64,000 nt of DNA, from NCBI GenBank assembly GCA_918797485.1, contig CAKKNE010000001.1, positions 5,084,001 to 5,148,000 of the forward strand, written 5' to 3'. Of this stretch, positions 1,833-62,180 are shown piece by piece; position 1 is the stretch's first letter; every line of letters starts with the position of its first letter. This stretch comes from Pelagomonas calceolata. Taxonomy: Eukaryota. A program made the position numbers and the translations under genes. Under the pieces are notes generated by a model. The model ran no database searches, was not told the DNA's origin, and worked only from the letters and a program-made list of their open reading frames with translations.

Positions 1833-1855
1833 CTAGTGTCTTTACATGCCGCTAG
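1833..1855 (+). promoter_or_regulatory. CTAG-box promoter-region motif (ctagtgtctttacatgccgctag)
   Basis: Recurrent motif between divergent genes. Confidence 0.7.
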
Positions 1856-1940
1856 GTGCGCTTGGCAAGGTTTCTCGAGCGCGAGGCCGCGCGGAGACCT
1901 ATTATATCAACTGAGACGCATCATTTGACGCAGACATGCC

Positions 1941-3878
1941 ATGCGACAAGTTTTATTAGCGATGCTGCTGTGTGCGGCCCGGGCATTGCTACGCGCAGCA
2001 CGCCCGCCGCTGCGGCGCTGCGCGCGCGCCTACGCAGCGAAGAGCGATGACCTCGCGTCCCTAGAAAAAGAATTAGAGCGCCACGACAACCTCTACTACA
2101 ACCAAGCGAAACCGGAGCTCACGGACGAGGCCTACGACGCGCTCGCGCGAAAAGTAGATGAATTGAGAACGACGCCGCGCGGCGTCGGCGCGAAAAGGGG
2201 AGGCACCCTCGCCAAAGCCACACCACATACGACGCCCATGCTGAGCCTGGACACGTTGAAGGTCAAGGACGGAACCGTAACCACTATAGCGAAATGGCTC
2301 AAGAAAACAATCAAAGCCTGCGCCCCAGAAGCGATGCACGGTATTGTCGGAGAGCCGAAGCTCGACGGGCTGAGCGTCTCCCTGACCTATGTCGATGGTG
2401 TGTTGACGCAGGCGGCGACGCGCGGCGACGGCGTGGTGGGCGACGACGTGACTGACCAGATGCTGGAGGGGACGGCCATACCGACGCAACTTGATGATGC
2501 TTTTACGGGCGACGTGCGGGGCGAGGTCATCGTCCCCGTCGCCTTTTTTCGAGGCTTGGAGAAAGATAGTGCAGTAAGTGCCCGAAATTACGCGGCGGGC
2601 TCGCTGCGCCAGAAGAACGCCTCGGATGTTAGCGGACGAGGTCTGCGCTTCGTCGTACATGATGTGGTTGGTGGTGCTGAGAATTACACGGAGCGACGCT
2701 CAAAGGCCAAAAAGTGGGGCTTCGAGGTGGCACAACCGTCCATAAGAGTGGAGGTCGACGACGACGTGCCCGCGGATGCTTTACCGGACCACCTCCAAGC
2801 CTGTGCTGAGAAGTTGGCGGCTTACCACGCTTCACTCGGCGAGCAACGGCCGCCGCCGGCCGTCGCCGGGACACGATCGTCGAAGAAGGACGAGCTCCCG
2901 TACGAGATCGACGGCGTCGTCTTCAAGGTGGACTCGTGCAAAGCGGACGCGCAAGCGGGTTTCACGGCGCGAGCGCCGCGCGCGCGCGTGGCCCTCAAGT
3001 TCGATCGCGACGCTATCGTCGTTACTACAACTCTACTGGATGTGGAGATCGGCGTCGGGCGGCTTGGTGCGTTAACACCAGTCGCGAAACTGGAGCCCGT
3101 GAACTGCGGCGGCGTCACGGTCTCGTCGGCGACGCTCCACAATTTTGATGTATTAAGGGCCTCCCTCGGCGGCGCGCGCATTGGGGATACGGTCTTAGTG
3201 AAGCGCGCCGGCGACGTGATTCCGCAGATCGCGCCCGCGATCGAAGGGACGGGCGACGCCTGGCCGCCGCCCTCGAAATGTCCGCGGTGCGGCGCGCCGA
3301 CACGAGTCACGGGCGACGGCCAAGTCGCGTGCACCGCCGGTCTCCAATGCGACGCCCAGGCGGCGGGTCGGCTGCAGCACGCCCTGGGTCGAGGCGCGCT
3401 TGACCTAGGAAGCGGGTCCCTGGGCGCGAAGAAGGTCGAGCAACTCGTTGAGGAGGGCGTCCTGCGCTCCGCGGCGGACCTCCTCGACTTCGTGGATGAA
3501 AGGGAAGCGAGCCTCTCCAAACTATCGGCGCTGGACGGCTGGGGCGCCACGTCCTCGGAGAAGGTGCTCGACGCGCTGGAGACGCGCACCGCGACGCCGA
3601 TCCCGCTCGCGGCGTTCGTCTTCGCGCTGGGCGCGCCGCGGATCGGCAAGGCGACCGCTAAAAAAGTTGCGGGCATTTGCGGGTCGTGGACGGCGCTGCG
3701 GCGGTCTCTCTCCCCCACGACGGCGGCGGACGACGCGTTGCGCACGGCGCTGGCCGAGGCGCGGGGCGTCGGCCCGGCCGCGGTCGAGGGGCTGCTCGAG
3801 TTCTTCGCTGGTGTTGAGGACGCCGCGGTGGCGGACCGGCTGGCGGCGCGGCTTGATGTGGTGGACGATGATACATAA
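1941..3878 (+). CDS. ligA: NAD+-dependent DNA ligase (LigA family) with N-terminal targeting presequence and no BRCT domain
   Basis: Domain Ia HDNLYY...DEAYD, MLSLD, motif I EPKLDG, ATRGDG, RGEV, EIDGVVFK, OB fold GRLGALTPVA/ATLHN/RAGDVIPQI, C4 zinc finger, HhH repeats. Confidence 0.93.
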   Translation: MRQVLLAMLLCAARALLRAARPPLRRCARAYAAKSDDLASLEKELERHDNLYYNQAKPELTDEAYDALARKVDELRTTPRGVGAKRGGTLAKATPHTTPMLSLDTLKVKDGTVTTIAKWLKKTIKACAPEAMHGIVGEPKLDGLSVSLTYVDGVLTQAATRGDGVVGDDVTDQMLEGTAIPTQLDDAFTGDVRGEVIVPVAFFRGLEKDSAVSARNYAAGSLRQKNASDVSGRGLRFVVHDVVGGAENYTERRSKAKKWGFEVAQPSIRVEVDDDVPADALPDHLQACAEKLAAYHASLGEQRPPPAVAGTRSSKKDELPYEIDGVVFKVDSCKADAQAGFTARAPRARVALKFDRDAIVVTTTLLDVEIGVGRLGALTPVAKLEPVNCGGVTVSSATLHNFDVLRASLGGARIGDTVLVKRAGDVIPQIAPAIEGTGDAWPPPSKCPRCGAPTRVTGDGQVACTAGLQCDAQAAGRLQHALGRGALDLGSGSLGAKKVEQLVEEGVLRSAADLLDFVDEREASLSKLSALDGWGATSSEKVLDALETRTATPIPLAAFVFALGAPRIGKATAKKVAGICGSWTALRRSLSPTTAADDALRTALAEARGVGPAAVEGLLEFFAGVEDAAVADRLAARLDVVDDDT

Positions 3879-3923
3879 GAGTTGTTACACATTCCGACCC
3901 TGATCTGGCTCTCGTGGACGCCC

Positions 3924-4817
3924 TCATCTTCCAACATCTGGCGCGCGCGGCCGCAGAACGGCGAGAGCTCGTAGCCGAAGATGACCACTGGGGCGGCCCA
4001 CTGGCAAGTTCAATTTTTTGGACCCTGTCCCGCCGGTCCCGGGGACTTGGTACTGGTAGCATCCGAGATGGGCCCAGTATTCCACGATCTTCGGAATAAC
4101 GTCAGCAGGGAGGCGCCTACCGCGGCTAAAAATTGCCGCGAACATGGAGCGGTGTCCCCTCGCGTAGGCAGGAAAGCCGCCGGCCGTGTGCACGGCTTGC
4201 ACGTACTCAATGACTTTCCTTTCGGAAGGGCTGATAAAGGCGTTGGTCTCGTCCAAAAGTTCAAAAAACTCTGTAACTGCGGGTTCGTTGATGGACGCGC
4301 CAGCACGTAAGAGCACCGTAATAATGGAGTGGTCTGCGTTTTCGCCCCTCCTTCGGTGTGGACAAGTGGTGAACCTGATGGCTCTGACGAGCGGCGACAC
4401 AGGCTTCGAAAAGTCTTCACTGCGGCGGTTTACGTCAGCGCCAGCCGCTAGTAGCGCACGGACAGCTTGAGCGTGCCCAAAATCAATTGCGTAGTGCAGC
4501 GGTGTAAGGGACCCATACCCATATGGTGGAACAAAATCAACCTGAGCACCGCTGGCCAAAAGCACGCGAATTGTTTCTGTGTACCCACTCGAGGCGGCTG
4601 AGTTTAGCGGCGTTCGACCCTTGTCTGTGTAACAATCCGGGTGCGCGCCGGCCTCGATCAATTTCGCGACGCAATCTGTGTTATTGTTGCACACCGCAAA
4701 GATCAAAGGCGTGTAGCCGTCAGCGTCCATGGCGTTCGGGTCAGCGCCCTCGGCCAGAGCGCGATTAAGGGCCGCGAGGTCACGCTTGAGGGCAGCCGCT
4801 CGCAATCGCGGGTCCAT
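3924..4817 (-). CDS. Ankyrin-repeat protein
   Basis: GYTPLIFA, GRTPLNSAA, TPLHYAI...GADVN repeats; first ATG at 4817. Confidence 0.85.
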   Translation of the reverse strand: MDPRLRAAALKRDLAALNRALAEGADPNAMDADGYTPLIFAVCNNNTDCVAKLIEAGAHPDCYTDKGRTPLNSAASSGYTETIRVLLASGAQVDFVPPYGYGSLTPLHYAIDFGHAQAVRALLAAGADVNRRSEDFSKPVSPLVRAIRFTTCPHRRRGENADHSIITVLLRAGASINEPAVTEFFELLDETNAFISPSERKVIEYVQAVHTAGGFPAYARGHRSMFAAIFSRGRRLPADVIPKIVEYWAHLGCYQYQVPGTGGTGSKKLNLPVGRPSGHLRLRALAVLRPRAPDVGR

Positions 4818-4909
4818 CACAGTGTCACCGTTCGAAGCTGCCCCAAGAAGCAAAGTGGGACCCCACTGCAAGCTTTCAACTGTCGGTCTGAATTTGGGCA
4901 GCGTCAATG

Positions 4910-4929
4910 CTAGTATCTTACTGCGCTAG
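4910..4929 (+). promoter_or_regulatory. CTAG-box motif (ctagtatcttactgcgctag)
   Basis: Variant copy between divergent genes. Confidence 0.55.
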
Positions 4930-5014
4930 TTAACGACGGCGCCGGCAAGCTAGCCGGATTTCACGCCGACGAAGCGATCATTCGTCTGAAAAACACCGGC
5001 CCTGAACACTAGCC

Positions 5015-6349: not shown

Positions 6350-6352
6350 TAC

Positions 6353-8155: not shown

Positions 8156-8414
8156 CCTCTTTTGTTCGCTGGGTATGCCACGAGTCTCCCGTTTGCTGGT
8201 GCGCCGCTGCTATTCCACCAGTCTACCGTTTACTCGTGCGCCGTCGTTTGTTGGGCAGCTGCTGGATGCCGTGTTCGCGCCGGCGGCCCAGTTTCAATTT
8301 TGCCGGGTTCGGGTTCGGGTTCACCTGCAGATGCTTCTTCACCCCGATCCCTGCGAGTCATAGTCCCGGCGAGGGGCTGCGTCTGTGTGGAATTCAGTGC
8401 GGCGCGCAATACTG

Positions 8415-8437
8415 CTAGCGGCCTGTAAAGACACTAG
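8415..8437 (-). promoter_or_regulatory. CTAG-box motif (ctagcggcctgtaaagacactag on +)
   Basis: Identical to 21372-21394. Confidence 0.7.
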
Positions 8438-8511
8438 CCTACAAAAGCATGCAGGAGGCTCGAGCGCTTTGCATCGTAGGGCTGCCCCCGAGCGAGTTGA
8501 CCATATACAAG

Positions 8512-12037: not shown

Positions 12038-12314
12038 CTGGGGCGGCGCGTTGCGCAGGCCTCCGATGGACCGGGCGTCGCTTTTATGTGCGGCCCGGAC
12101 GCTGGCCTGAACAGAATAGCGCCGCGGCGCCGTGGTCTGGTCTAGCCGAGCTGCGCAAGTGACTTGGCGCCTGGAAGCTGCTGCGCGGCGTTTTCGCGTC
12201 GGTTCACCTAGGATCGAGAGCACAGCGCTCGTGGCTGCTCGCTAGAGCTATTCTATGAGTAGAACGTGATCAACCACCGATAACTGGGGCCAAAGGTTAA
12301 TCTCGAGTAGCGTG

Positions 12315-12336
12315 CTAGTGTCTTACTCGACGCTAG
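12315..12336 (+). promoter_or_regulatory. CTAG-box motif (ctagtgtcttactcgacgctag)
   Basis: Between divergent genes. Confidence 0.7.
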
Positions 12337-12517
12337 CTGCCATCGAATGTGATCGAGGTCTCAGCGCTGCCACAGGGCCGCCGCGTGCCTATTTGCTGGC
12401 TCAGAAGTCGCACGGCTCACTGGTGGTTGCCGGTGTGCAATCGAACGTTCAGCCGTACGCCAGCCGCCGCGCAATCACACGCCAAAGCCAGCGGCCGAAT
12501 TTTCACGCGCAATCACC

Positions 12518-21202: not shown

Positions 21203-21371
21203 TGTGCTATTGTGCTACGCGGCTGCCTGGGCGTTTCGCGCGCTCGTTTCGATGCTGTCGCACGTCGTTATCGAGGAGAGCTGCTCAGGACCACTTTTCG
21301 GCAGCTATGTGGTCCCGTAATCGCTCAAATGGCGCAGGTGTTGGGCTGGTGAAACGAGTTAACTTTTGTGG

Positions 21372-21394
21372 CTAGCGGCCTGTAAAGACACTAG
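21372..21394 (-). promoter_or_regulatory. CTAG-box motif
   Basis: ctagcggcctgtaaagacactag, between divergent genes. Confidence 0.7.
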
Positions 21395-21761
21395 CAAGCA
21401 GCTAAATTTCGATCCGTGCTTCTTTGACTGCTCAAGCAAGGCTCCGGCAGTTACTTGACGGTTGTAGGAGCTCCCAGAAGCAGCACGACTTGACATTGTG
21501 ACGGCCCAGGGTTCTGCCAAGCTTCACGCTGTTTGTGAGCCATCTAGCGCGGTTGGAGACCTTCTGAACACTCCTGGCAGCCCTTTCGGTCGCCTGTACT
21601 TCGCCAAACCAGCCACAGCTCGCGCGACCCTCCAGCAGGCGCTTTTGGAACTGAGAGCTGCCTCAAAGTTTGAGTGCAAACGCTGCGTCCCGACCCTTCG
21701 AGACGCCAGCAGCCGCTCGACACCGTCAGACAGACCGCTTGATTAGCTCGACCCAGTAATA

Positions 21762-23159: not shown

Positions 23160-23251
23160 GTTGGAGTGTTAAGCGAAGAGCTGTCTTTGCACTGCGAGAG
23201 TGAAATAGTTGTGCAGCAGCGGTGGTCTCAGCGAGCCAGAACACGCATTAA

Positions 23252-23272
23252 CTAGCTGCGTAAAGACACTAG
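23252..23272 (-). promoter_or_regulatory. CTAG-box motif (ctagctgcgtaaagacactag)
   Basis: Between divergent genes. Confidence 0.7.
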
Positions 23273-23423
23273 CATTCCCAACCTCGAGGCAAAATCGTCC
23301 GTAGCGATCGCGATTGAAGCCTTCGCGGTCCTCAGTGGTGCGGAGCCGACTTATTCTATCGGTGCCTCGCGGTTGGCCCGCCAGCGATAAGCGCCGGGCC
23401 GCCAAGATAGCGCAAACCACACC

Positions 23424-25436: not shown

Positions 25437-25597
25437 GAGGCTTTTGATGGGCAGCCCGGTGGGCAGCCGTGCCCTCTGCGCTTACGGTCCAAGCAGCGGC
25501 GGCGTGGACAACGAAGCAACAGAACACGTCCAAGTGAGCGCTGCAGTGCACTACGCGTGCTTACTAGTAGCCGGCTTGCCGGCTTGCCAGGCTGTTG

Positions 25598-25620
25598 CTA
25601 GTGTCTTTATAGACCGCTAG
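25598..25620 (+). promoter_or_regulatory. CTAG-box motif (ctagtgtctttatagaccgctag)
   Basis: Between divergent genes. Confidence 0.7.
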
Positions 25621-25772
25621 TTATTATTTTTTGCCCGTTTCGCCTCGAGCTGAGCGTAAGCTCGGCACCTAATTAGCCTCTGACGCAGGAGCGTTGTTTA
25701 ACGAATACCTCTACTCGGATTCTGCAGCGTGAAGCCGAGGCGCAGCTCGCGGCGGTCGATTAACAGCACAAC

Positions 25773-26489: not shown

Positions 26490-26509
26490 AATAATACAAC
26501 AAAACAAGG

Positions 26510-26983: not shown

Positions 26984-27049
26984 GTCTCGAAACCGATCCG
27001 TGAGTCGTCAAAAATGGCCAAACACCAGCACACGGCGTTCAGAGCATAG

Positions 27050-27071
27050 CTAGCGTCATGTAAGACACTAG
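27050..27071 (-). promoter_or_regulatory. CTAG-box motif (ctagcgtcatgtaagacactag)
   Basis: Exact reverse complement of 62159-62180. Confidence 0.7.
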
Positions 27072-27091
27072 CAAACCAGCCACACCTCTCG

Positions 27092-29793
27092 CAACCCGAC
27101 CGCTGGGCTCACAAAATAAACCCGGTTTGACCGCATTTCGGCCATTTGCCAAAAAAGGCGGCGTGCGCCAGACGTAGGGCGCGACGCTTGTCTGTGGCGA
27201 TCGGTCTGTCCTACGCCACCCTTGGGCCGGCCGAGGGGCGGCGGGCGCGTGCAAAACGACGCGCGGGATGCCGAGAACTCGGCCTTGTCTCGGTACGATG
27301 CCTGAGCGCAAACTCTTCCTCCGTCGCCGCTGGGGCCTACGGGGAGCCGGGTCGACTCACCAAAAACGAATACCCAACAAAGAATTTAAAAAGTACTAGT
27401 AGGTTACTAGTAGGTTGCCATACGCAGGCTTCCGGGTACTTCTGAAGGGGGGACTCGACGGTTTTGAGACGGGCGGGTCCCGCCCGATCCATTGGAGTAA
27501 AGTCCCTCTAGTGAAAAGACCCGCTAGCAAACCTCGTGACCCGCACGAGCTCAGAGCAGCCCACTTTTTGCGGCCGCGCGCGGCCCAATCGGTACGCACA
27601 GCACACAGCAGCACTTGATAAGACGTCCACGCGCGCCGGCGCCCACGCGCGCCGAAAAATTCGCGCGCGTTGCGCCACAGAGGCCGCCAACCAGCAAGAC
27701 CAGTGTAAGGAGGCGCTACGCGCGCCCTAATCGCTGCCCGAACCGCGTCCCGGACGGCGGGCGCGAACGGGCTACTTCCGAAGGCTGCCCTGGACACGCG
27801 GCGCGCACGAACAGCATGTCGACCGCGACCGCGCGACCGTCGTCGAGCGGCGCGGCGGCACCGCGGTGGGGTTCGCGCACCCATCAGCACAGCCGCGCGC
27901 TTTCGTGGGCCTTGAGGGGTATTATTAGGTAGTCTAAGGGCGAAAAACTTATTTTCCGTATTATGGATGATTCCGGTTGGCTTTATGGTGAGTCGACCCA
28001 GCCCTGTGATTTATTGTGGCAAGATCACGACCTGAACGAGCGTCCCTGAAGTTTTGAGCGAAATCGCCTCCACAGTAACGGAGAAAAAAAATCGAGCGCG
28101 GGACGGCGTTTTCGGCGACGTGCCCAAAAACGCCCTTGGCGCTGCGGGGGCGGCGCCTGGTTGAAACGGCAGAAGGAGTGGTCCCTCCGCGGCGCGTTCG
28201 TGGGCGGCGTGTTCTTGAAACGACTTCCGGCTCCGCGGTCAAGCCGCGCGGGACGCCCCGAGAGTCCGAGACCGCCCGACGGGGCGCGCCGGGCGCGTAG
28301 ACGACAATTGACGGCGAGCGCGCCGTCGGACTCGGCCGTGGGACGGGTGCGGACGTCTGATGCCGCGAGAGCCTTAGGCTGAGGGCTTAGTGTCGTTCGC
28401 GCGCCTACTTGTGCCGACATATGAATTATAGTAGGCAATCAAATTACCAGGGTAATTGCCGGTAGTGGAAATTACCGGTAATTACCGGTAATTACCGGAG
28501 TCGATTTTTGGCTACCGGGTAATGACCCCTGGGGTGGAAAGGTAAAACGCGTGAGTAAAGGGTGGACGCGGCAGACGCGTTTTGGACTATGGGCAGGATA
28601 TGGCCAAGCCCATGCCCCAGGGGCATCGTCCCACGGTCCCAAGTGAGCTTTTTACGCGTCAGTCCCATTGGAAATGCTAATCTGGGTTCTGGGAGGCTGC
28701 CCCGGCCCGGCTCACCTTGGACCTCCCAGATTACCGGTAATTTCCGTTACCAGGGTAATTTACCGGTAATTACCGGTAATTACCGACCCTGAGATCTCGT
28801 TACCGGGTAATTTGCCAACTATAATATGAATTTTAATTAATAGCTAAAAATGCCTTTGTGGCGAATGCGCTGCAAAGATGTCAAGGAGACATCCAACGTA
28901 CCCCTAGTGTACTACGCGAAGGTTATTAGCCCCCAAAAGCGATCAGGAGGCCCAGGCGTGGGGGCCCGGCGCGGCGTCCCCGGCCCGTGCACGAAAGCCA
29001 CTTAGCCCTTTTTTTGGAGGCACGCAATTCGTAGTAGAGCCCGAGGCGTCTCGAAACACAACGCGGGAGCCGGCCGTGCCGCTCCGACGGCCGGAGAAGG
29101 GCAAACCTAGTCATTTCGTAGACTGGGTGAATCGCCGGCGATACACAAGTCCAAATTTAAAGCGCGGCCGACAGCAGATCTCGTTCATACTCGATCAGTC
29201 GTTTAGACGCGTGTCGACGCCGTTTCCACAAATCGCGCTACTAGCTGCGACGAGATTTCGAGATCGTACGGGCACCGACCTCGAAAATCTCCTCGTCGCG
29301 GCTTTATCACCTCGAAATAGCCTCGGCGGCTAGCAGCGCGGCACCGCGGCGTCCTTTGGACACCCCTTAACGTCTCTACGGCCCGAATCACGCTCAAGGC
29401 TGGCACCGCATCCGTGAGGCGCCTGTCCCCCGAATCGCGGCGACGCCCGCCGCGCCCAGTCCGCCAGCCCATTTGTCTCTCCGACCCGTCGCAGCGCCAT
29501 CATATCTCCCGGCGCGACTCTCGCGCACCTTTTTAGCGCCGCGCGACGAGTTTCCCTCCACAGTAACGCGCAGATTTGTCGTTTTCCCAAGTCCGTCGAT
29601 TTCTTCGCCGCGCCGGCGCCTCGGGCCGTCTCCTTTGGACCGGGGGCCGGGCGTGGGGCGGAGCGATCGCCCCTATCTCGGTTTTCTCGGAGGTGCCCGG
29701 CGCGCCGCGCAGGGCCGGGGCCATTGCGCTGGAAAACCCGTTTAAGAAGTGAATTGTTTTAGGGTTTTTTAGCTGAGCCAAGCGGTCGGGTTG
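27092..29793. mobile_element. Non-autonomous TIR DNA transposon, 2.7 kb, 7-bp TSD, CA...TG ends (P-superfamily-like)
   Basis: TIRs at 27092-27111 and 29774-29793 match at 19/20; TSD CCTCTCG at 27085-27091 and 29794-29800; no credible ORF. Confidence 0.8.
28427..28823. mobile_element. hAT-like MITE (397 bp) nested in the 2.7-kb element
   Basis: 8-bp TSD ATATGAAT at 28419-28426 and 28824-28831; TIR TATAGT(A/T)GGCAA; subterminal arrays of AATTACCGGT. Confidence 0.85.
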
Positions 29794-32472: not shown

Positions 32473-32746
32473 TTCTAAGCCGAGCTACAGCTGCAGACGC
32501 TGGCTGCGTTGTACAGCGGTGCAATGCACAGGCGATTGATGTGTCAGAACCACCGATGCGCGAGCTACGCTGCTGCAATTGTGCGATTAATCTAGCCTGC
32601 AGGCAGCGTGTAACACACTATCTCAGAGCTAAAAAAAGAGGAAAGCACTACTTGACGCGCATCCATCCGTCGCCGCTGCGTTTTGATTGCGCGATCGGAA
32701 GCTCATTACACCTGCACTTCAGAGCACAGCACTTGCAGCTGCACTC

Positions 32747-34300: not shown

Positions 34301-34379
34301 GTTATTTAGTAATTTTCGCTTAGAGAGAGATAATCGCGCGAGTATTGTTACGGTGCTAGAGAGATAATCGGCAAAAAAG

Positions 34380-34401
34380 CTAGTGTCTTACAGGACGCTA
34401 G
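34380..34401 (+). promoter_or_regulatory. CTAG-box motif (ctagtgtcttacaggacgctag)
   Basis: About 110 bp upstream of a tandem-oriented gene. Confidence 0.7.
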
Positions 34402-34508
34402 CTCGTTTTTTGGGTCGGCTCTGCGGCGCACGTCTGCGCGCGCAGCCGTCCAGCTGCTACCATAAGGCTGCAGCCAGTGCTCAAGGCACTGTTGCATCGG
34501 TCTGTTGC

Positions 34509-36607: not shown

Positions 36608-36808
36608 CGCTGCGCGCGTTTTTTTACTGTCGCGTCTGGCGTGAGCAGGGCTGCACCCAAATCACCCAAATCAATGAATGTGCTGTAAAAGCTGGCTACC
36701 GATGGATTGCTGTCGCTGCGGCTGCAGTGATACCACGAATAACGATGCCCAAGCACCTCACAAGCTTTGGCAGCTTTGTTTTCTTCTGCTTGCAAAATGC
36801 TGGGCTTG

Positions 36809-36829
36809 CTAGTGCCTTACAAGCGCTAG
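36809..36829 (+). promoter_or_regulatory. CTAG-box motif (ctagtgccttacaagcgctag)
   Basis: Between divergent genes. Confidence 0.65.
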
Positions 36830-36938
36830 CTGCGGCTGCGGCCAAGCCGCGTTTTGCCGCATCGATTGCAGAAACAGGTCAAAGACATCAAATTGTTGAA
36901 CAAGTGCCGCTGCACAGCGCAAGCGCAAGTGCAGCAAC

Positions 36939-41043: not shown

Positions 41044-41352
41044 GGTGTCGTCGTAGAGGAGAGTATGTGCCGATTTGCCCGTGATAGGTGCGAGAAGGGC
41101 CGCGTTTGCTGCCGCGTTTTTTGCAATGCGTCGTCCGACTGCCGGGGCCCAGCCGGGGCTGCCCCTCGGCGCTCGGCCATGCTCCGCCATTGGTACAGCT
41201 GCTGGCTGCCCTGCCTCGATCACGACTTGTCACGATGTCACGCAGGCGTCGTCCAGAGCTGGTCCTCACTGAGAATGTATCGGAACTGTGTCAGATTCCT
41301 CGGGGGGCAGCACTACTGCCGTGTATGGCGGCGCGGGGGGCAAACTGGCTTG

Positions 41353-41374
41353 CTAGTGTCTTACAGGCCGCTAG
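41353..41374 (+). promoter_or_regulatory. CTAG-box motif (ctagtgtcttacaggccgctag)
   Basis: Upstream of the minus-strand phosphatase gene. Confidence 0.7.
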
Positions 41375-41432
41375 CTGCGCTTTTTAGTCGTCGACGCGAC
41401 ATGGCGTGCTGGAGACTAATAGAAATCCTAAA

Positions 41433-42428: not shown

Positions 42429-42546
42429 TGTCTTGTCTGCTCGATGGCGTGGCTGTGTGGCTGCAGCACGCTTGCGATATCACACCTTACGCTAATGCAG
42501 GCGTAGTAGGCGTAATCGTTAAACGTGCAAGCGCACGCCGGAAATG

Positions 42547-42568
42547 CTAGCGTCCAGTAAGGCACTAG
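42547..42568 (-). promoter_or_regulatory. CTAG-box motif (ctagcgtccagtaaggcactag)
   Basis: Between divergent genes. Confidence 0.7.
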
Positions 42569-42726
42569 AAAGCTACGCACGAAGCCCCAAAGCTCACGTC
42601 GCACTGATACGCGTGCTAATCGTCGTTTGGTACAGACGCGGGAGTCGTTTCGCAGCGTATACTGTCCACGGCTACTCTACGGCTGCTCATACCACGGGTA
42701 ACATTGTAATGGCAGCCCACCATGTC

Positions 42727-47306: not shown

Positions 47307-47927
47307 GCGCATAACATTCCTTACTCGCCTCGACGAGCATGGGGGGCCGCGAGAAGGCGGAGCCCGAATCTTCCGGCGGGCTTGGGATTGCACGGGTGAG
47401 TGTTCGCGCCAGAGATCGCACATTCGTACCCCAAGGAACAGGCTCGGAGACGGTGACGACGCGCGCGGCGGCTTATGGCTTATTGGTGGCCGCGCCGCGT
47501 CCGTCTTCTCGCCGCGTTTTCACGAGGCGCGGCCACCCGCGCTCGACGAAGCTGGAGCGTTGGATGCTGCGGCCCTCGCTGGCGCCTCACACGCACGACG
47601 ATGCTGTCATGCAGCAGCCGCACTCAGCGGTGCGCCAGGCGGCCATTTGCATTCATGGGGTGGCTACACGTCAGTCGCGGAGTCGTTGCTACTGGTGCGC
47701 GCGCCATCGGTCATGCTTCTGGGACAGCCGCCGCTCCGCGCGGTCCTTGCGTGCACCGCTGCTGCATGCTGCAGCAGCAGAGCAGCCACCTTGCCCGGCG
47801 CTGATTCGCGCGCCTCAGATCGCACAGGTGCAGTTGAGACATTGAGGCATCAGCTGCTGCTCCGTGCGTGGCCTGTTGTCGCACAGAGATTCGTAGCTCG
47901 CTTATACGCGTGCGTGTGCGCTGAAAG

Positions 47928-47949
47928 CTAGTATGTGTCAACACGCTAG
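47928..47949 (+). promoter_or_regulatory. CTAG-box variant (ctagtatgtgtcaacacgctag)
   Basis: About 135 bp upstream of the ATG at 48085. Confidence 0.55.
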
Positions 47950-48084
47950 CTCCATTGGCTTGTGTTTTTGCGCGGCCCCAGTGGTCTCAATATCGAGCCC
48001 CTGCTCCCATAAAACTCCACCGAAGTATCTCTTATCAGCTGCCTCGAATCACTCTTGCGTTACCGCGCTGTCGCCTCGCACCCC

Positions 48085-50169: not shown

Positions 50170-50317
50170 ACCTGTTGTGAGGTCGTTTTTAAGAATGTCA
50201 TACTTGTACATTACGAAAGGGGGGGGGGGGACTCAACACGCATTGAGTGGGTTGTTGTAGCCGCACGCCGCGTTGGATACGTCGTTGGATGGGAGTTACT
50301 ACTAGCATAAGCAACCT

Positions 50318-51666: not shown

Positions 51667-51738
51667 TTCTGTCTCGCTATCGATTGGTGATCCCTTCCTT
51701 GCTGTGGCTCCAACCTCTGCACGAGTTATTGGCAGGGG

Positions 51739-51759
51739 CTAGCCCCTTAAAGGTACTAG
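51739..51759 (-). promoter_or_regulatory. CTAG-box variant (ctagccccttaaaggtactag)
   Basis: About 70 bp upstream of the Mic60-like ATG. Confidence 0.55.
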
Positions 51760-51795
51760 CAAAACGGCTATGGGGGCGTAGTAGGCGTCTAAGTA

Positions 51796-51955: not shown

Positions 51956-51957
51956 AA

Positions 51958-52568: not shown

Positions 52569-52594
52569 ATCGGCAAACACCCTTACTCCGCTAC

Positions 52595-53529: not shown

Positions 53530-53720
53530 TATTGATTGCACAGCACTGTGGTCTTATTGATCCACAATGCAATAATTGCGATCGGCTTGGGCGCGTGCGC
53601 TGCGAATGGATGATGTGTCTGCAGCCGTCCGGAGAGTGTTTTACGACTCGCGCGGAGAGCACTCGTCGCGGGCCAGGGACTCGCTCGTATATGCAAAAAA
53701 ACACGTCGGGCGCGCGGTTG

Positions 53721-53741
53721 CTAGCGGCTCTAAGACACTAG
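53721..53741 (-). promoter_or_regulatory. CTAG-box motif (ctagcggctctaagacactag)
   Basis: Between divergent genes. Confidence 0.7.
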
Positions 53742-53963
53742 CAAGAGCTCTGGCCGATGACAGACTTTGCATGCAGCAAACGCGTCGTCCTGGGCACAGC
53801 AGCACGTGCATTTTGCAGAGTGCACTCTCATACGTAAGCTGCGTGATATCACCAGTTCTCGTGCCGCAACGCGAGAGGGTCAGCGAGGACACCACAGATT
53901 GTAGCTGAGTGCAGCGACTGCAAACAGCCTGCGTCGAGGCGCACGACTGGAAAACGTGGTACC

Positions 53964-55642: not shown

Positions 55643-55644
55643 GT

Positions 55645-55862
55645 TTATGAGCTTAAGAAAGAAGCGGGCGGCGGCTGCACGGCCTCGGACCCGAGGCGGC
55701 GGCGCCGCACGGCGGTCCACGCGCGCACGGCCTCGGCGAGCTCCGCCGCGACGCGGTACTCGTCGGTCTTCGCCAGGAGCTCGTCGGGGATGGCGTCGCC
55801 CCAGCCGAACGTCCGCGCGCCCCAGAAATGATTGAAATGCAGCTTCTCCGGCGGCAGGTCCC
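55645..55862 (-). pseudogene. Orphan last-exon-like fragment preceded by an intron remnant
   Basis: DLPPEKLHFNHFWGAR... downstream of an intron-type motif whose acceptor lacks AG. Confidence 0.4.
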
Positions 55863-56292
55863 CGTGTGTGTGTAAGATTGGTTTAAAAGACGTCGCGTCG
55901 ATTGCGTGGACCGCGACCCCGGCGCGAGGCCTACAGGGCGCCCGCGAGTCCGCGGCGCGCGCGTCGCGGGCGTTGCTCAAAGGAGCCACCGCCACCGCCT
56001 CCCACCGCGTCCGGACGACTACGTAGCCGGCGGGAAGCGTACCGAGGGCTCCCAGGACCCGGGCAGCGACGCACTCCCGCACGTTGGGACAGCGCGAAGC
56101 CAGCGCAATCAACGACTGGCGGCGCTGCCCGCGCGGACCACGCGAGCACACGGCCAGCAGCATTGGCTCCGGACGCTCCCTGCGAACGCTACCCACGCGT
56201 TTGGCGGCGCGCGAAGCTGCCCCGAGCACAAAACAAAGGCTGCCCAAGCCAACGCCATCGCCGCGGCGCCACGACAAAGACCACGACAAAAG

Positions 56293-58161: not shown

Positions 58162-58188
58162 CAGTTACAGTTACTCTTCACATACAAG

Positions 58189-59292
58189 CTAGGACTCGTT
58201 CGCGGGCTGGCCGTACGCCGACGTCGTCTCGAAGCGTGCCACAACATAACCGAAGAGCGTGAACTCGCGCGTCGTGCGCTCGGTGCGCGCCTCATTCGAG
58301 GTACTCGCGCGCGACCGCGACCACGACCAGCCCTCCGACGCGCCAGTGCAGCCCGCGTCGTCGTTGTTGTTCACGGGCCGCGCCCGCGGCGGCGGCGGCG
58401 GCGGCGGGGCCGGCGCCCGGTCCGGCGGCGCTACGCGATTGGCCGAGCGGCGCCCCGGCAGCGCCGCCGCCGCGCCGCTCAGCGCGTCGTCGACGCGATT
58501 CCGCCTTCTTGGAACCTCGCTCGACCGGCGCCGCGGCGAGCGGTCTGTACCGTTCGCGCGCCGCTCGGACTTGGCCCGGCGCCAGTAGGCCTGGGCCCGG
58601 TCCGCGTCGGAGGGCGCCGCCGCCGCGGCCTTCGCCCGCCAGTTGTCGTCGTCCACATCAAAGCCCAGCTGCTCGAGCCGCTGGCGCCGATCTGCAGATA
58701 ATTTGCCCTCCTCGCGCGCGCGCCGCTGCGCCGCGCACCAGTCGCCTAACACACCATCCGGGTAGCAGTGACCCTTCTTGAGCTTGAACGCCGCGAGGGC
58801 CCAGTAGCGCTTCTCCCAGGCCGCGTCCCGGTCCTGGTTCTCGTCGAGGTCGACGCGCGTTTGTGCCGGCGGTTCCGGTGCCGGCGGCTTTTTTGGGGGC
58901 TTGGGCTTGCTCTTCCGGGAAGGCGGCGGCGCCTTCCGTGAGGGCCGCTTCTCACCGGATACGGCCTTGTGCGCCTCGGTGAGCGCCGCGAAGAGCTCGG
59001 ACGTGGCTCCATTTGTTTTGTCGGGGTGCAGCTTGAGCGCGAGCTTCCTATAAGCCTTCTTCGCGTCCGAGGCGCTGGCCTCTTCATTAAGTCCCAGCGC
59101 CTGCCGCGGGTGCCTCCTTATGTTATCGAGCGCCGCCTTGAGGAGGGCCGTCGCGTCCTCCGCGCCGCGTTCCGCGGTTAGTAGCAGCGCGGCGCACTCC
59201 GTGTATTGCGAGTGGTGGTGCAGATTCCTCGCTTGCGCGAGGTCTTGTGCTTTGACTTCGAGGCGTCGGTTCGGTGGCGGCGACGTCGACAT
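58189..59292 (-). CDS. J-domain protein with helicase-associated (HA) domain
   Basis: KKAYRKLALKLHPDK; WEKRY..L.AFK...GH...LG.W...QR...RLEQLGF. Confidence 0.85.
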   Translation of the reverse strand: MSTSPPPNRRLEVKAQDLAQARNLHHHSQYTECAALLLTAERGAEDATALLKAALDNIRRHPRQALGLNEEASASDAKKAYRKLALKLHPDKTNGATSELFAALTEAHKAVSGEKRPSRKAPPPSRKSKPKPPKKPPAPEPPAQTRVDLDENQDRDAAWEKRYWALAAFKLKKGHCYPDGVLGDWCAAQRRAREEGKLSADRRQRLEQLGFDVDDDNWRAKAAAAAPSDADRAQAYWRRAKSERRANGTDRSPRRRSSEVPRRRNRVDDALSGAAAALPGRRSANRVAPPDRAPAPPPPPPPRARPVNNNDDAGCTGASEGWSWSRSRASTSNEARTERTTREFTLFGYVVARFETTSAYGQPANES

Positions 59293-59684
59293 GCTGCTGT
59301 GCTTACTACTGGCAGACAGGCTGCCTCATGCTCAGGCTTTTTTTCGAGAGTTTCACGTGTTCCCGCCGACACGGCTCGGTTGGATGGCAGCGTAGAGCTG
59401 CAGGCAGGCCACAGGACGACCTAGAGACGGAGGTCGGGCCTCGCAAAGCAAGCTTTGCAATATTTGCAAGCTAAGTGAGTAAGGTACTAGAGAGGCCAGT
59501 CCAGGACTCACCCGGGGAGCCTTGCGTCCTAGTCCAGACCGGTAGCGCTCCCTAAACACCGATGCGGCGGGCTGGGGCGCTAGTGACAGCGCTGCGTGGG
59601 GGCAGCCGGTACAACGACTTGTAAAGCGCTGCAGCCGCAACCTGCGGGGGCTGCCTCGAAAAGCGAGAGCAACAAACGACAACA

Positions 59685-61031
59685 ATGCCGGCCACGGGCG
59701 CCTCGCCCGCGCCGCCGCCGCCGCCGCGCTCGAAGGTGAAGCGCAAGGCGCCGAAGCCCCCCGTCCAGCAGCCCTTTGCGGATGATCCCTACGGCCAGGG
59801 CATCCCGGGCGCGAACCCCTACGGCTTCACGTCCTACGACCCGGACCAAGCGGCGCCGTATGAGGACGCTTTTGACGAACAGCCGGTAGGTGGGTCGGGC
59901 TTCGCGGCCGTGAACGCCGCGCGCCAGGCTGTGGAAGATGAGGCCGGTGCTCTGGACGAGCAGCCGGAGGAGGACGATGAGGCGACGATGGAGCCGCCCG
60001 TCGAAGAAGCCCCGCAGAAGCCGCACATCTTGGAGAGCGAGCCCGAGACGGTCATCGGCGAAACGCTGCAGATCGAAGGGACATTAAGGTTCGAACGATT
60101 ACTGCGACTCGACGGCAAGTTCGAGGGCGATTTAGTATCCACGGGTGACTTGATCGTGGGCCCGCGCGGCGAGTTAGTGGGAGATGTCCGGGACATGGCC
60201 GATTTGGTGGTCTTCGGCAAGGTCATCGGCAACATCAACGTGGACCACCTGGAGCTCTGCGGCGCGGCGTCGATTTATGGGGACGTGACCTGCAAGACGC
60301 TGCTGATGGACCCGACGGTCGTATTGGTGGGCACGCTGAACGTGAACCCCTTCGCGCCGAATTTGATGGATCGACATGGAGACGAGGTGCCCCCTGAAGG
60401 CGCGGGCGTTGTTCCCAATTCGCCGCCGACATCTCCTGCGAAGGAGCCGGCGGAGGCTCCGGCTGCCGCGCCTCCTGTGGAGGAGCCACCGGCCTCGGCG
60501 CGGAGCGAGCCCGAGGCGACGCCGGCCGTCGAGGCCGCGCCGTCTCCCGTGAAGGCGCCCGAGCCCGCGAAATCGCCCGAGAAGCCCGCCGAGCCGGAGC
60601 CGGTCCCGAGCCCGGCGAAGAGCCCGGCGAAGGAGCCCGCGCCCGAGCCGACCGAGGCGCCGGCGTCGCCGGCCAAGGCGGCCCCGGCGCCCGAGCCCGT
60701 CGCGGAGCCCGCGAAGGCGCCGGAGCCCGAGCCCGCGGCGGCCGCCGAGCCCGCGAAATCGCCGGAGAAGCCTGCTCCGGCGGAGCAGGTCGGCGGCGCG
60801 CCGCCCGCCGCGGAGACTGCCGACAGCGCGCCGGCGGAGGCCGCGAAATCGCCAGCGAAGCCCGCCGAGCCCGCGGCCGAGCCCGCTGCCGAGCCCGTAA
60901 CCGCTGGTGGGGGCGGCGGGGTATCAGTCCCAGAGACTGCGACGGGCGCGGCAGATGGCGGCGAGAGCCGGCCTCCGAGCGCGGGAGAGGCCGCGGTCAG
61001 CGAGGCACCGGCTGCGGCGCCGGCGGCGTGA
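59685..61031 (+). CDS. Bactofilin-domain protein with long Pro/Ala/Glu, KSP-rich tail
   Basis: TVIGETLQIEGTL.F...LRLDG.FEG.L...G.L.VG..G...GDV...V.G.V.GNI....LEL...A.I.GDV....L. Confidence 0.85.
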   Translation: MPATGASPAPPPPPRSKVKRKAPKPPVQQPFADDPYGQGIPGANPYGFTSYDPDQAAPYEDAFDEQPVGGSGFAAVNAARQAVEDEAGALDEQPEEDDEATMEPPVEEAPQKPHILESEPETVIGETLQIEGTLRFERLLRLDGKFEGDLVSTGDLIVGPRGELVGDVRDMADLVVFGKVIGNINVDHLELCGAASIYGDVTCKTLLMDPTVVLVGTLNVNPFAPNLMDRHGDEVPPEGAGVVPNSPPTSPAKEPAEAPAAAPPVEEPPASARSEPEATPAVEAAPSPVKAPEPAKSPEKPAEPEPVPSPAKSPAKEPAPEPTEAPASPAKAAPAPEPVAEPAKAPEPEPAAAAEPAKSPEKPAPAEQVGGAPPAAETADSAPAEAAKSPAKPAEPAAEPAAEPVTAGGGGGVSVPETATGAADGGESRPPSAGEAAVSEAPAAAPAA

Positions 61032-61068
61032 TGGATTTATCCCGCTTCCCCAGATAAGTTACATACAC

Positions 61069-62099
61069 TTATGAGGACCACTGCGGATAGCTGCCGAACT
61101 GGAGCAGCCTCCGCAGGACCTCGCTCTCGCTGCCCGGGTCCGCGTCGGAGCCGTCGATGAAGCCGAGGCTCGGCGCCCGGCCGTAGTCGCGCGTGATGGC
61201 GTCGCCCGCCACGAGCGCTCGCGAGGCGACGACGAGGAGGTCGTCGCCGCCGGGGTCCTCGACGAGTGTTGCCGTCGCGCCGGCGGCGCCGTCGCGCAGC
61301 GTGTCGTACAAAGGGCAAACGACAATATCGTCACCGACGCGCGCGGCCCGAGAGAGTGCCCGAGAATAGAGCTCCGCCGCGTCGAGCTCGCGCCGCCGTC
61401 TAGCCGTGCCTTCGGTACGCGTCGGATTTCGGACCAGAGGAATGAGCGCCTCTCTGCACTCCCGCCACGCATAGCCTCGCTCGACGAGCGCCGCGCGCGC
61501 CGCCTTTTCGTTGCGGTGGCGGCACAGTGCCGAGAGCCGGTAGGCGGCGCGATCGACGGCCGGGTGGCCTGTGTGGTTGTCGACGCGTGAGTTTCGATGG
61601 CGTGAGGCGAAGGAGGTTTCCGACGCGGGCGCGTGCATTTCATCCCGAACTTCTTGAAAATTTCGAAATCATTGTCGCTGCCCGTCGCGAGCAGCGAATC
61701 GACGGTCTCTTTGTCCCTAGCTTCGAGATCATCGCTCGACGTCGCCCAGCCTCCCCCGCGCCATGACCGCACCCAGCTTCCCAAGTCTCCGCCTTCTTCC
61801 ATGGCCTCGATTGCTGCAGCTGTAAGCTTCCCGGGCCAGTCCTTCCTCCGTGGTGCGCTGAGTGTGAGCGAGCGCGGCACGCGTGCGAGCACTTCGAGGG
61901 CAGCGACGTCCTGCTTCACTGTCGCGCTGTCGCCGTCGAACGAGAGTTTGTCCGCATTGATTCCGGCATTCTCGCACCACGATTGGAGGTCCAACTCACT
62001 CAGCGTAGCAGCATGCAGCAGTGGACCGCGCGACGACGAAATCGCTGGCGGTCTGATGAATGCGTAAGCACTACTGCATAGTATGAGTAGTCGTTTCAT
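61069..62099 (-). CDS. Degenerate SET-domain (Rubisco LSMT-like) protein, plastid-targeted; GC-AG intron 61569-61636
   Basis: AYAF presequence; spliced MKC|HP; SRA...CPLYD...VVASR.L.AGD.IT.DYG. Confidence 0.7.
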
Positions 62100-62158
62100 G
62101 GTGGTGCAGCGCTTTGATACGATCTATACGTGCCACGCCGGTTGAACAAAATGGCATG

Positions 62159-62180
62159 CTAGTGTCTTACATGACGCTAG
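62159..62180 (+). promoter_or_regulatory. CTAG-box motif (ctagtgtcttacatgacgctag)
   Basis: Between divergent genes. Confidence 0.7.

What the first reader, a model, noticed from the sequence alone, without database searches (positions are those of the whole stretch)
1833..62180. A CTAG-bracketed ~22-bp element marks nearly every promoter region: candidate undescribed bidirectional promoter system
Seen: consensus CTAG-TGTCTT(T)ACA-N2-4-CGCTAG (20-23 bp), occurring in either orientation. Copies with both CTAG ends lie in 13 of 16 head-to-head intergenic regions (1833, 4910, 8415, 12315, 16709, 21372, 23252, 25598, 27050, 36809, 42547, 53721, 62159). The other three regions have degenerate or half copies (about 32592-32620, 46137, 59471-59490). 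Four more copies lie upstream of tandem-oriented genes (34380, 41353, 47928, 51739). 8415 equals 21372, and 27050 is the exact reverse complement of 62159. I saw one per region and none in convergent spacers or within genes, and the flanking genes are functionally unrelated. Inference: a core promoter or general-regulatory-factor site (two palindromic half-sites about 17-19 bp apart) that organises bidirectional transcription and nucleosome-free regions. It could alternatively be a replication-origin mark or a domesticated transposon footprint. I know of no description of it.
Basis: partly seen in the sequence, partly recalled or inferred. Interest (0 to 1): 0.9.

Follow-up and report, generated by a model that had tools for sequence, protein, structure and literature searches.

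The report
CTAG-armed promoter element of a picoalga
A conserved ~29-bp DNA element with two CTAG arms lies in the spacers in front of about two thirds of the genes in this compact marine-alga window, with mapped transcript 5' ends starting 3-32 bases from its edges on either side, so it is likely an undescribed two-way promoter element read by a still unknown protein.

Summary
Sixteen strong copies of (GCTTG)CTAGTGTCTT(T)ACA-N3-4-GCTAG(CT), plus one variant at 27508, lie in the 64 kb. All are in spacers in front of genes and none is in coding sequence. CTAG pairs 16-19 bp apart number 19, against 1.2 in shuffles.

RNA-seq laid on 40 kb shows transcripts ending just short of the element. Ten of 12 copies have a mapped 5' end 3-32 nt from an edge, often on both sides. 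That puts the element centre at about -30.

Over 120 marine metagenome stretches carry the same element with conserved flanks that were not in the search pattern. Their 83 copies in contigs of 1 kb or more avoid called coding sequence and sit mostly between divergent genes. Orientation shows no significant relation to the flanking genes.

It is most likely a bipartite, near-palindromic binding site that fixes initiation in both directions. Binding and causality are untested.

"Nearly every promoter" is overstated. About 28 of about 41 gene starts have a strong copy, and several mapped 5' ends have none. No description was found in print. The window looks like a Pelagomonas-type pelagophyte.

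The parts
1828..1855 (+). element copy (CTAGTGTCTTTACATGCCGCTAG) between divergent ORFs 877-1686(-) and 1941-3878(+)
   Evidence: nhmmer E 1.6e-7 (training copy)
4906..4931 (+). element copy, short form (CTAGTATCTTACTGCGCTAG), between 3924-4907(-) and 5015-6349(+)
   Evidence: E 6e-5
8413..8441 (-). element copy, identical to 21372 copy, between 6353-8155(-) and 8449-9675(+)
   Evidence: E 1.9e-7
12310..12338 (+). element copy between 9722-12223(-) and 12518-13672(+)
   Evidence: E 1.9e-7
21370..21399 (-). element copy; minus-strand transcript contig ends at 21348 (24 nt from the CTAG-to-CTAG edge), plus-strand 5' ends at 21515-21537
23250..23277 (-). element copy; 5' ends at 23182 (-) and 23294 (+, 22 nt from the edge)
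25595..25622 (+). element copy (its reverse strand reads TATAAAG); minus-strand 5' ends at 25567-25578 (20-31 nt from the edge)
27048..27076 (-). element copy, reverse complement of the 62159 copy; 5' ends not resolved by the rows shown
27508..27527 (+). variant copy CTAGTGAAAAGACCCGCTAG, not in the finding; plus-strand 5' end at 27546 (19 nt from the edge)
34377..34403 (+). element copy in a tandem spacer: upstream gene's contig ends at 34325, downstream gene's contig begins at 34421-34427
36804..36831 (+). element copy flanked by 5' ends at 36785-36790 (-) and 36833-36835 (+), 43 bp apart
41348..41376 (+). element copy in a tandem spacer of two minus-strand genes: 5' end at 41321, upstream gene's 3' end at 41417
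42545..42573 (-). element copy flanked by 5' ends at 42500-42517 (-) and 42582-42604 (+)
47923..47951 (+). element copy with a weak core (CTAGTATGTGTCAACACGCTAG), flanked by 5' ends at 47878 (-) and 47962-47980 (+)
51737..51763 (-). element copy with a weak core; minus-strand contig ends at 51730 (9 nt from the edge)
53719..53745 (-). element copy; listed minus-strand contig piece reaches 53623, so the 5' end is not resolved more closely
62154..62182 (+). element copy between 61059-62099(-) and 62326-63711(+)
32592..32620 (-). degenerate copy with a longer spacer; plus-strand contigs begin at 32640-32641 (20 nt away)
   Evidence: (E 0.4)
59471..59490 (-). degenerate copy (CTAGTACCTTACTCACTTAG); minus-strand contigs end at 59452-59474
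   Evidence: (E 3.6)

Best explanation
The element is likely the binding site of a sequence-specific nuclear protein, probably a dimer or a two-domain factor, that fixes where RNA polymerase II starts on both of its sides, so that it would act as a two-way core-promoter element.

Shown:
- A ~29-bp unit, GCTTG-CTAGTGTCTT-(T)ACA-N3-4-GCTAG-CT, lies only in spacers in front of genes.
- Transcripts begin 3-32 nt outside its edges in either direction, which places its centre at roughly -30.
- Orientation shows no significant relation to the flanking genes.
- The two boxes CTAGTGTCTT and CGCTAG are conserved, while the spacer between them varies in sequence and by 1-3 nt in length.
- The same element, in the same setting, is abundant in related marine sequences.

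Inferred:
- A protein reads the near-palindromic arms (GCTAGYGKC on each side).
- It keeps the spot free of nucleosomes and recruits or positions the pre-initiation complex on either side.
- This gives divergent start sites as little as about 45-110 bp apart.
For: 1. Non-random and real. There are 19 CTAG pairs at 16-19 bp against 1.19 in shuffles. The core gives 6 matches against 0.39 expected.

2. Placement in the window. All 16 strong copies and the 27508 variant are in 5' spacers. No profile hit better than E 0.4 lies elsewhere in 64 kb.

3. Transcript 5' ends.
- In 40 kb laid with stranded poly(A) RNA-seq reads and RNA contigs, 10 of 12 copies have a 5' end proxy 3-32 nt from an edge.
- Four copies (36809, 42547, 47928, 23252) have proxies on both sides.
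- Pairs of divergent 5' ends lie 43, 65, 84, 112 and 167 bp apart.
- 0 of 40 listed contig pieces crosses a strong copy. One piece (41417-42517) is bounded by a copy at each end.
- The two degenerate copies also sit 0-20 nt from 5' ends.

4. Independent copies.
All are GC 0.55-0.70.
- Bases outside the pattern are conserved: -3 T 87/121, -2 T 87/121, -1 G 89/121, +1 C 104/121. Nothing is conserved further out.
- Of 83 copies in 78 contigs of 1 kb or more, 0 lie in a called coding ORF. Flanking genes are divergent in 28, tandem in 19 and convergent in 1.
- Of 13 further copies not selected by the pattern, 8 are divergent, 2 tandem, 2 have a gene start on the one called side, and 1 is ambiguous.

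5. No clear polarity. ATG distances are 154 against 194 nt (medians) on the two sides, the split is 16 against 12 in pairs, and 12 against 7 in tandem spacers.

6. Uneven conservation, typical of a binding site. In 28 copies, CTAGTG, TT and CGCTAG are kept in about 80-100%, and the middle in only 40-70%. Total length is 20-23 nt.

7. Conserved block. In an otherwise poorly alignable divergent spacer between two roughly 84%-identical loci, L013 and L031, the element is a conserved block.
Against: - The 5' ends are RNA-seq contig ends and read-end pile-ups, not cap-based. The tables were truncated, so distances carry about 10-20 nt of uncertainty. Two of 12 copies were not resolved.
- Some 5' ends in the same spacers lie 70-143 nt from the element (23182, 21515-21537). 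At least three 5' ends (19609, 29778-29789, 31705-31710) have no copy at all, so the element is not required for every promoter.
- A few copies elsewhere in the genome are transcribed. Reads and 11 RNA contigs of run X1 cross-match the 21372 copy with a one-base difference.
- Spacer length varies by 1-3 nt, which many rigid dimeric factors would not tolerate.
- The L013/L031 comparison is biased, because both loci were fetched for having the element.
- No binding, chromatin or mutational data exist here.
- One homologue of the 8449 gene (in L020) has no strong copy detected in the contig near it.
Confidence: 0.62

Rival explanations
1. It is a general regulatory or boundary site. A bound factor excludes nucleosomes, or blocks or terminates polymerases that read through from the neighbouring gene, much as Reb1 and Abf1 sites do in yeast. 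It would not itself position the pre-initiation complex. Start sites would then follow from the open chromatin it creates.
For: - It occurs in front of functionally unrelated genes, with no clear dependence on orientation.
- It sits between the 3' end of one gene and the start of the next in tandem spacers (34325 / 34380-34401 / 34421; 41417 / 41353-41374 / 41321).
- Some 5' ends in element-bearing spacers lie 70-143 nt away.
Against: The nearest 5' end is usually only 3-32 nt from the edge (10 of 12 copies). From recall, yeast factor sites of this type lie roughly 80-150 nt upstream. Divergent 5' ends only 43-65 bp apart leave little room for separate core promoters beside the site.
Confidence: 0.15
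2. It is a miniature palindromic mobile element, or the remnant of one, that inserts preferentially into open promoter DNA. It would be carried along without a function of its own.
For: - It has imperfect 8-9-bp inverted arms (CTAGTGTC / GACGCTAG) around a short loop.
- Copy number is very high, and both orientations occur.
- A 10-bp indel, CTAGGGATGC, lies directly beside the element between two roughly 98%-identical contigs, L006 and L119.
- The hexamer GGATGC or GCATCC sits at that same spot in 8 of 121 copies.
- The genome carries active-looking introner transposons.
Against: - The conserved unit is only about 29 bp, with no conserved sequence and no target-site duplication outside it.
- Conservation is uneven along the unit rather than uniform decay.
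- No strong copy was seen in the introns or convergent spacers examined.
- The tight distance to 5' ends is not expected from insertion preference alone.
- The profile finds no match inside the window's introners.
- A mobile origin and a present promoter function are not mutually exclusive.
Confidence: 0.12
3. It acts as RNA or as a single-stranded hairpin, for example a leader or terminator stem-loop in transcripts.
For: Copies with a GAC-type spacer fold into 9-bp DNA hairpins far better than shuffles (z -4.1 to -4.3).
Against: - The commonest form (GGCC spacer, 40 of 121 copies) folds no better than shuffles (z +0.30, -0.08, +0.50).
- None of the 40 listed RNA contig pieces covers a strong copy.
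- Orientation relative to genes shows no clear bias.
- There is no Rfam match in the window.
Confidence: 0.03
4. It marks replication origins or another chromosomal function unrelated to transcription.
For: None beyond its regular spacing along the DNA.
Against: There is one copy per about 4 kb, tied to gene starts and to transcript 5' ends. It is rare in convergent spacers (1 of 48 two-sided cases).
Confidence: 0.03

Closest known systems
Oomycete INR+FPR core promoter block (Phytophthora infestans; PMC3599244, abstract read)
   Same: It is a long (16-19 nt), lineage-specific core-promoter sequence in a stramenopile whose promoters lack a TATA box. It was found by over-representation near start sites.
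   Different: INR+FPR overlaps the start site, whereas this element lies upstream of it. According to that abstract, the combined INR+FPR motif is well conserved in only about 13% of genes, and only INR seemed present outside oomycetes. This element has an unrelated sequence, is near-palindromic, serves both directions, and sits in front of about two thirds of the genes in the window.
TATA box / TBP site
   Same: The element centre lies roughly 30 nt upstream of mapped 5' ends. It holds the most AT-rich stretch of the local DNA (TGTAAGA on the reverse strand). Like a TATA box, it is nearly symmetric.
   Different: The TATAWAWR consensus (recalled) is met by only 1 of 16 strong copies (25598, reverse strand TATAAAG). 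The conserved CTAG arms have no counterpart in a TATA box.
Yeast general regulatory factor sites (Reb1, Abf1, Rap1); recalled, not looked up
   Same: They are sequence-specific sites found at many unrelated promoters. They work in either orientation, are associated with nucleosome-free regions and shared divergent promoters, and Reb1 also blocks read-through polymerases.
   Different: They are shorter sites with other sequences. The Reb1 core TTACCCG only loosely resembles CTTACAGG. They usually lie further upstream of start sites, and each occurs at a smaller share of promoters.
Vertebrate CGCG element TCTCGCGAGA (PMC6192621; title and start of abstract seen in the listing)
   Same: It is a palindromic promoter motif reported to induce bidirectional transcription in TATA-less promoters of housekeeping-type genes.
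   Different: It is 10 bp long and CpG-based, and it is found in a limited group of promoters. Its sequence is unrelated.
MITEs and bacterial REP-type palindromic repeats
   Same: They are short, very numerous, near-palindromic repeats confined to spacers, found in both orientations.
   Different: No target-site duplication or longer element was seen. This element has a fixed relation to transcript starts, and its conservation is box-like. At about 29 bp it would be far below known eukaryotic MITE sizes (recalled).

Membership tests
TATA box (TBP-binding core element) | Centred about 25-35 nt upstream of the start site | tested here: inconclusive
   The edge-to-5'-end distance is 3-32 nt for 10 of 12 copies, so the centre is about 14-43 nt away. 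However, the 5' ends are RNA-seq proxies, not cap-mapped.
TATA box (TBP-binding core element) | Sequence TATAWAWR (consensus recalled) | tested here: not met
   Only the 25598 copy reads TATAAAG on the reverse strand. The consensus reverse strand reads TGTAAGAC or TGTAAAGA.
TATA box (TBP-binding core element) | Bound by TBP | not testable with these tools
   No binding data, and no genome is held for the window.
General regulatory factor site at shared promoters (Reb1/Abf1 type) | Sequence-specific site in front of many functionally unrelated genes, in either orientation | tested here: met
   Flanking genes include a DNA ligase, NAD kinase, adaptin, sulfotransferase, KTI12 and a transporter, among others. 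No clear polarity.
General regulatory factor site at shared promoters (Reb1/Abf1 type) | Creates a nucleosome-free region | not testable with these tools
   No MNase or ATAC data are reachable.
General regulatory factor site at shared promoters (Reb1/Abf1 type) | Matches a known factor's site (for example Reb1 TTACCCG, recalled) | tested here: not met
   The consensus core is CTTACAGG. The resemblance is loose.
Oomycete INR+FPR block | Overlaps the transcription start site | tested here: not met
   The listed transcript contigs stop outside the element. The feature is taken from the abstract of PMC3599244.
Miniature inverted-repeat transposable element | Terminal inverted repeats | tested here: inconclusive
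   The arms CTAGTGTC / GACGCTAG form an 8-9-bp imperfect dyad. In the commonest form one position is a mismatch.
Miniature inverted-repeat transposable element | Target-site duplication flanking the element | tested here: not met
   No repeated or conserved bases lie beyond -5 and +2 in 121 copies. The two CTAGs belong to the dyad itself.
Miniature inverted-repeat transposable element | Presence/absence polymorphism at otherwise identical loci | tested here: inconclusive
   Only a 10-bp indel beside the element was seen (L006 against L119). All fetched loci were chosen for having the element.
Known RNA family | Match to an Rfam model at its gathering score | tested here: not met
   0 matches in the whole window.

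The most novel reading that the evidence does not exclude
This ~29-bp bipartite CTAG element is the main nuclear core promoter of a globally abundant pelagophyte picoalga, used in place of a TATA box. An unknown lineage-specific protein reads it and fires transcription outward on both sides from start sites as little as about 45 bp apart. It has multiplied through the genome by a transposition-like or conversion-like process that still leaves small footprints beside it.
Probability: 0.3. Interest if true: 0.85.

Novelty: new variant of a known kind. Interest (0 to 1): 0.72.

Why it matters
Core promoters outside animals, yeasts and plants are poorly known. Pelagophytes, which are among the most abundant small eukaryotic algae of the open ocean, have no described promoter grammar.

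A single long and easily recognised element in front of most genes would have several uses:
- It would give a direct handle for annotating start sites and gene models.
- It would help in building expression cassettes for genetic tools in these algae.
- It could be used to fish out the protein that reads it.
- It would help sort algal contigs from bacterial bins in ocean metagenomes. At least three such mis-binned contigs were seen here.

It would also be a compact natural example of how one site can drive two genes, with start sites only tens of base pairs apart.

Tried and rejected
- **Whole-genome scan.** No genome is held for this window.
- **Earlier notes of this scan.** Searches by place, sequence and words found nothing.
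- **Literature.** Ten searches were run. Three used the motif text in either orientation: the 10-mer gave 45 papers, of which the 20 listed were primer-type hits and 25 were not seen; the 13-mer gave none; the 11-mer gave 4 unrelated papers. Five used taxon and promoter words. One search found the Pelagomonas genome paper, and the oomycete paper. No description was found. The main text of the Pelagomonas calceolata genome paper (PMC9481584) holds 0 'motif' and 0 'promoter' (term search only). Its supplements were not read.
- **Protein atlas on the KTI12-like protein.** It gave no useful taxonomy.
- **GC3-only gene calling.** It was too crude and was replaced by codon log-odds calling. That method still misses several genes, so the gene tally is approximate.
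- **Viral contigs.** 0 matches.
- **Prokaryote genome collection.** 5 matches in 596 billion bases. One (L123, GC 0.38, flanks unlike the element's) looks like chance. L121 is uncertain, being a single copy in a 77-kb contig. L122, L124 and L125 have the element's flanks and look like algal contigs in ocean bins.
- **Hairpin idea.** Rejected for the commonest form.
- **Polarity of the element relative to genes.** None found.
- **Link to the introner repeats.** The profile finds no hit inside the window's introners. Only a loose TGT...ACAG resemblance to their ends was seen.

Full report
**What the window is.** The 64 kb are 54-69% G+C per 2-kb window, about 63% overall, and densely packed with mostly unspliced genes. 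Pfam hits include beta-adaptin, KTI12, a cytosolic carboxypeptidase, NAD kinase, a LigA-type DNA ligase and a bactofilin, so this is a compact eukaryote. No whole genome is held for it. RNA-seq shows a few introns of 99-221 nt. Several are multi-copy repeats with 12-bp inverted ends. These figures fit what the Pelagomonas calceolata genome paper reports: 63% GC, 0.45 introns per gene, and an intron length peak near 210 bp attributed to introner elements (PMC9481584, passages found by term search). I therefore treat the window as a Pelagomonas-like pelagophyte. That is an inference.

**The observation.**
- Every coordinate in the finding holds the sequence described.
- Put in one orientation, the copies read (c)TTG-CTAGTGTCTT(T)ACA-NGNC-GCTAG-C.
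- The core with up to 2 mismatches occurs 6 times against 0.39 expected.
- Of 131 CTAGs, 19 pairs are 16-19 bp apart. Dinucleotide-preserving shuffles give a mean of 1.19 and a maximum of 6 in 300.
- A profile built from the 16 convincing copies finds only those 16 in the window (by construction). The next hit has E 0.4, so there is no strong copy inside coding sequence.

Corrections to the finding:
- 16709 is a bare CTAG pair without the core.
- 27508-27527 is an extra variant copy.
- 6346-6367 is a weak pair over two convergent stop codons.
- The 47928 spacer is head-to-head rather than tandem.
- By my approximate gene list, about 28 of about 41 gene starts have a strong copy in their 5' spacer, which is not 'nearly every' one.

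**Relation to transcripts.** One run search gave stranded poly(A) RNA-seq raw reads and RNA contigs of one coded organism. I laid them on 19500-39499 and 40500-60499. Genes with Pfam support fix the reading of strands: a first mate on + means a minus-strand RNA.

The 5' ends, taken from contig ends and read-end pile-ups, lie just outside the element:

| Copy (CTAG to CTAG) | 5' end to the left (minus strand) | 5' end to the right (plus strand) |
|---|---|---|
| 21372-21394 | 21348 | 21515-21537 |
| 23252-23272 | 23182 | 23294 |
| 25598-25620 | 25567-25578 | not seen |
| 27508-27527 | not seen | 27546 |
| 34380-34401 | not applicable (tandem) | 34421-34427 |
| 36809-36829 | 36785-36790 | 36833-36835 |
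| 41353-41374 | 41321 | not applicable (tandem) |
| 42547-42568 | 42500-42517 | 42582-42604 |
| 47928-47949 | 47878 | 47962-47980 |
| 51739-51759 | 51730 | not seen |

- Ten of 12 copies thus have a 5' end 3-32 nt from an edge. The copies at 27050 and 53721 were not resolved by the rows shown.
- None of the 40 listed contig pieces crosses a strong copy. One piece, 41417-42517, is bounded by a copy at each end.
- The degenerate copies at 32592-32620 and 59471-59490 also sit 0-20 nt from 5' ends (32640; 59452-59474).
- With an element of 21-23 bp, the centre lies roughly 14-43 nt from the nearest start, typically about 30.

Caveats:
- These are not cap-mapped ends, and the tables were truncated.
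- 5' ends at 19609, 29778-29789 and 31705-31710 have no copy nearby.
- Reads and 11 RNA contigs that cross-match the 21372 copy with a one-base difference show that a few copies elsewhere in the genome are transcribed.

**Copies elsewhere.**
All 120 loci are GC 0.55-0.70.
- Several share the window's introner repeats or paralogues of its genes, so they come from the same or related organisms.
- Bases outside the search pattern are conserved: GCTTG at -5 to -1 (T 87/121, T 87/121, G 89/121 at -3 to -1) and C at +1 (104/121), then T (65/121). Nothing beyond that is conserved. The unit is therefore about 29 bp and is not part of a longer repeat.
- With ORFs called by a codon model trained on the window, 83 copies in 78 contigs of 1 kb or more gave 0 inside a called ORF. 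There were 28 between divergent genes, 19 in tandem spacers and 1 convergent. A further 29 had a gene start on the one called side, and 6 were uninformative.
- In 29 loci of 3 kb or more (174,881 nt), the profile found 13 further copies that the exact pattern had not selected. Eight are divergent, 2 tandem, 2 have a gene start on the one called side, and 1 is ambiguous.
- Orientation shows no significant relation to the flanking genes.
- Viral contigs gave 0 matches. The prokaryote collection gave 5, of which three carry the element's flanks and look like algal contigs binned with bacteria.

**Anatomy.** I aligned 28 copies: 17 from the window and 11 of the 13 non-selected ones. The other two lack an intact CTAG and were left out. 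CTAGTG, TT and CGCTAG are kept in about 80-100% of copies and the middle in 40-70%. Total length runs from 20 to 23 nt. The arms form an imperfect dyad, with GCTAGTGTC on one side and GCTAGCGKC when the other side is read in reverse.

A hairpin is not the selected feature. The commonest spacer (GGCC, 40 of 121) folds no better than shuffles (z +0.30, -0.08, +0.50), although GAC-type copies fold well (z about -4). There is no Rfam match. Between two roughly 84%-identical loci, the element is a conserved block in a divergent spacer that otherwise aligns poorly. Both loci were fetched for having it, so this comparison is biased.

**Mechanism.** The best reading is a bipartite binding site for a sequence-specific factor that sets initiation on both sides. 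Placement, distance to 5' ends, the lack of clear polarity and box-like conservation are shown. Binding, nucleosome exclusion and recruitment of the initiation complex are inferred.

The rivals are:
- a boundary or nucleosome-excluding site that does not itself position initiation;
- a promoter-seeking miniature mobile element;
- an RNA or hairpin element;
- a replication-origin mark.

The mobile-element idea keeps some weight. A 10-bp indel, CTAGGGATGC, lies directly beside the element between two roughly 98%-identical contigs. The hexamer GGATGC or GCATCC sits at that spot in 8 of 121 copies. A mobile origin and a present promoter role could both be true.

**Comparison with what is known.** The nearest precedent in stramenopiles is the oomycete INR+FPR block. 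It is 16-19 nt long, overlaps the start site, and the combined motif is well conserved in about 13% of genes. No TATA box was detected there, and only INR seemed present outside oomycetes (PMC3599244, abstract). The present element has another sequence, lies upstream of the start, is near-palindromic, works in both directions and is far more frequent.

It sits where a TATA box would, but it fails the TATA consensus in 15 of 16 strong copies. It behaves like yeast general regulatory factor sites and like the vertebrate CGCG element (PMC6192621, seen only in a search listing) without sharing their sequence. No description of it was found in ten literature searches. Supplements, subscription journals and 25 unlisted hits were not covered.

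**Verdict.** This is a real, strongly non-random, promoter-bound element that is likely functional and apparently undescribed. I rate it a new variant of a known kind, namely lineage-specific core-promoter or general-factor sites.

Noticed in passing
window 33616-33822, 43183-43393, 43757-43904: These three introns of 207, 211 and 148 nt are multi-copy repeats. They have 12-bp inverted ends (CTGTGTGGAAAT...ATTTCCACACAG) and a short direct repeat that supplies the 5' splice site (GTCTGC, GTCGGC; one uses GC-AG). Hundreds to thousands of reads fit them only in part, and several metagenome loci share them. These are introner-type transposon introns.
   Followed up: partly
window 37359-37361: An in-frame TGA splits an arginine-methyltransferase-like reading frame (36939-38960) into two ORFs. 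One contig of run X2 reads G at 37361 (TGG, Trp), while the other runs keep A. This is either a strain-specific nonsense or read-through codon, or an assembly difference.
   Followed up: partly
L006:4860-4895 against L119 (same locus, about 98% identical): A 10-bp indel, CTAGGGATGC, lies directly beside the element. The hexamer GGATGC or its complement GCATCC occupies that same spot in 8 of 121 metagenome copies. It could be a footprint, or an alternative spacing of a third half-site.
   Followed up: partly
window 27350-27390 and 27490-27527: About 150 reads per run match only 27350-27390 and run on into other sequence on both sides. One side includes CTAGTGAAAAGGCCCGCTAG. A more highly expressed paralogous locus elsewhere therefore carries nearly the same variant element as 27508.
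   Followed up: no
L122, L124, L125 (and perhaps L121): Contigs filed under bacterial or archaeal ocean bins in the prokaryote genome collection carry the element with its typical flanks. They look like algal DNA that was mis-binned.
   Followed up: partly
L022:1248-1301: Two copies of the element lie back to back, 3 bp apart, in opposite orientation within one divergent spacer.
   Followed up: no
flanks of 109 metagenome copies (-45 to -5 and +3 to +43): Extra GCTTG-type words (TTGCTT, CTTGCT, TGCTTG) are enriched on the GCTTG side, and TTTTG(C) on the other side. A+T rises to 0.42-0.46 near the element, from about 0.38 further away.
   Followed up: partly
window 1941-3878 and 59685-61031: The window encodes a bacterial-type NAD-dependent DNA ligase (adenylation, OB and HhH domains) and a bactofilin-domain protein. 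Both are unusual in a eukaryotic nuclear genome.
   Followed up: no
window 28171-28837, 46503-47169, 51839-52505: These bins have zero raw-read RNA depth between transcribed neighbours. They may be silent DNA, filtered repeats, or differences between strain and assembly.
   Followed up: no
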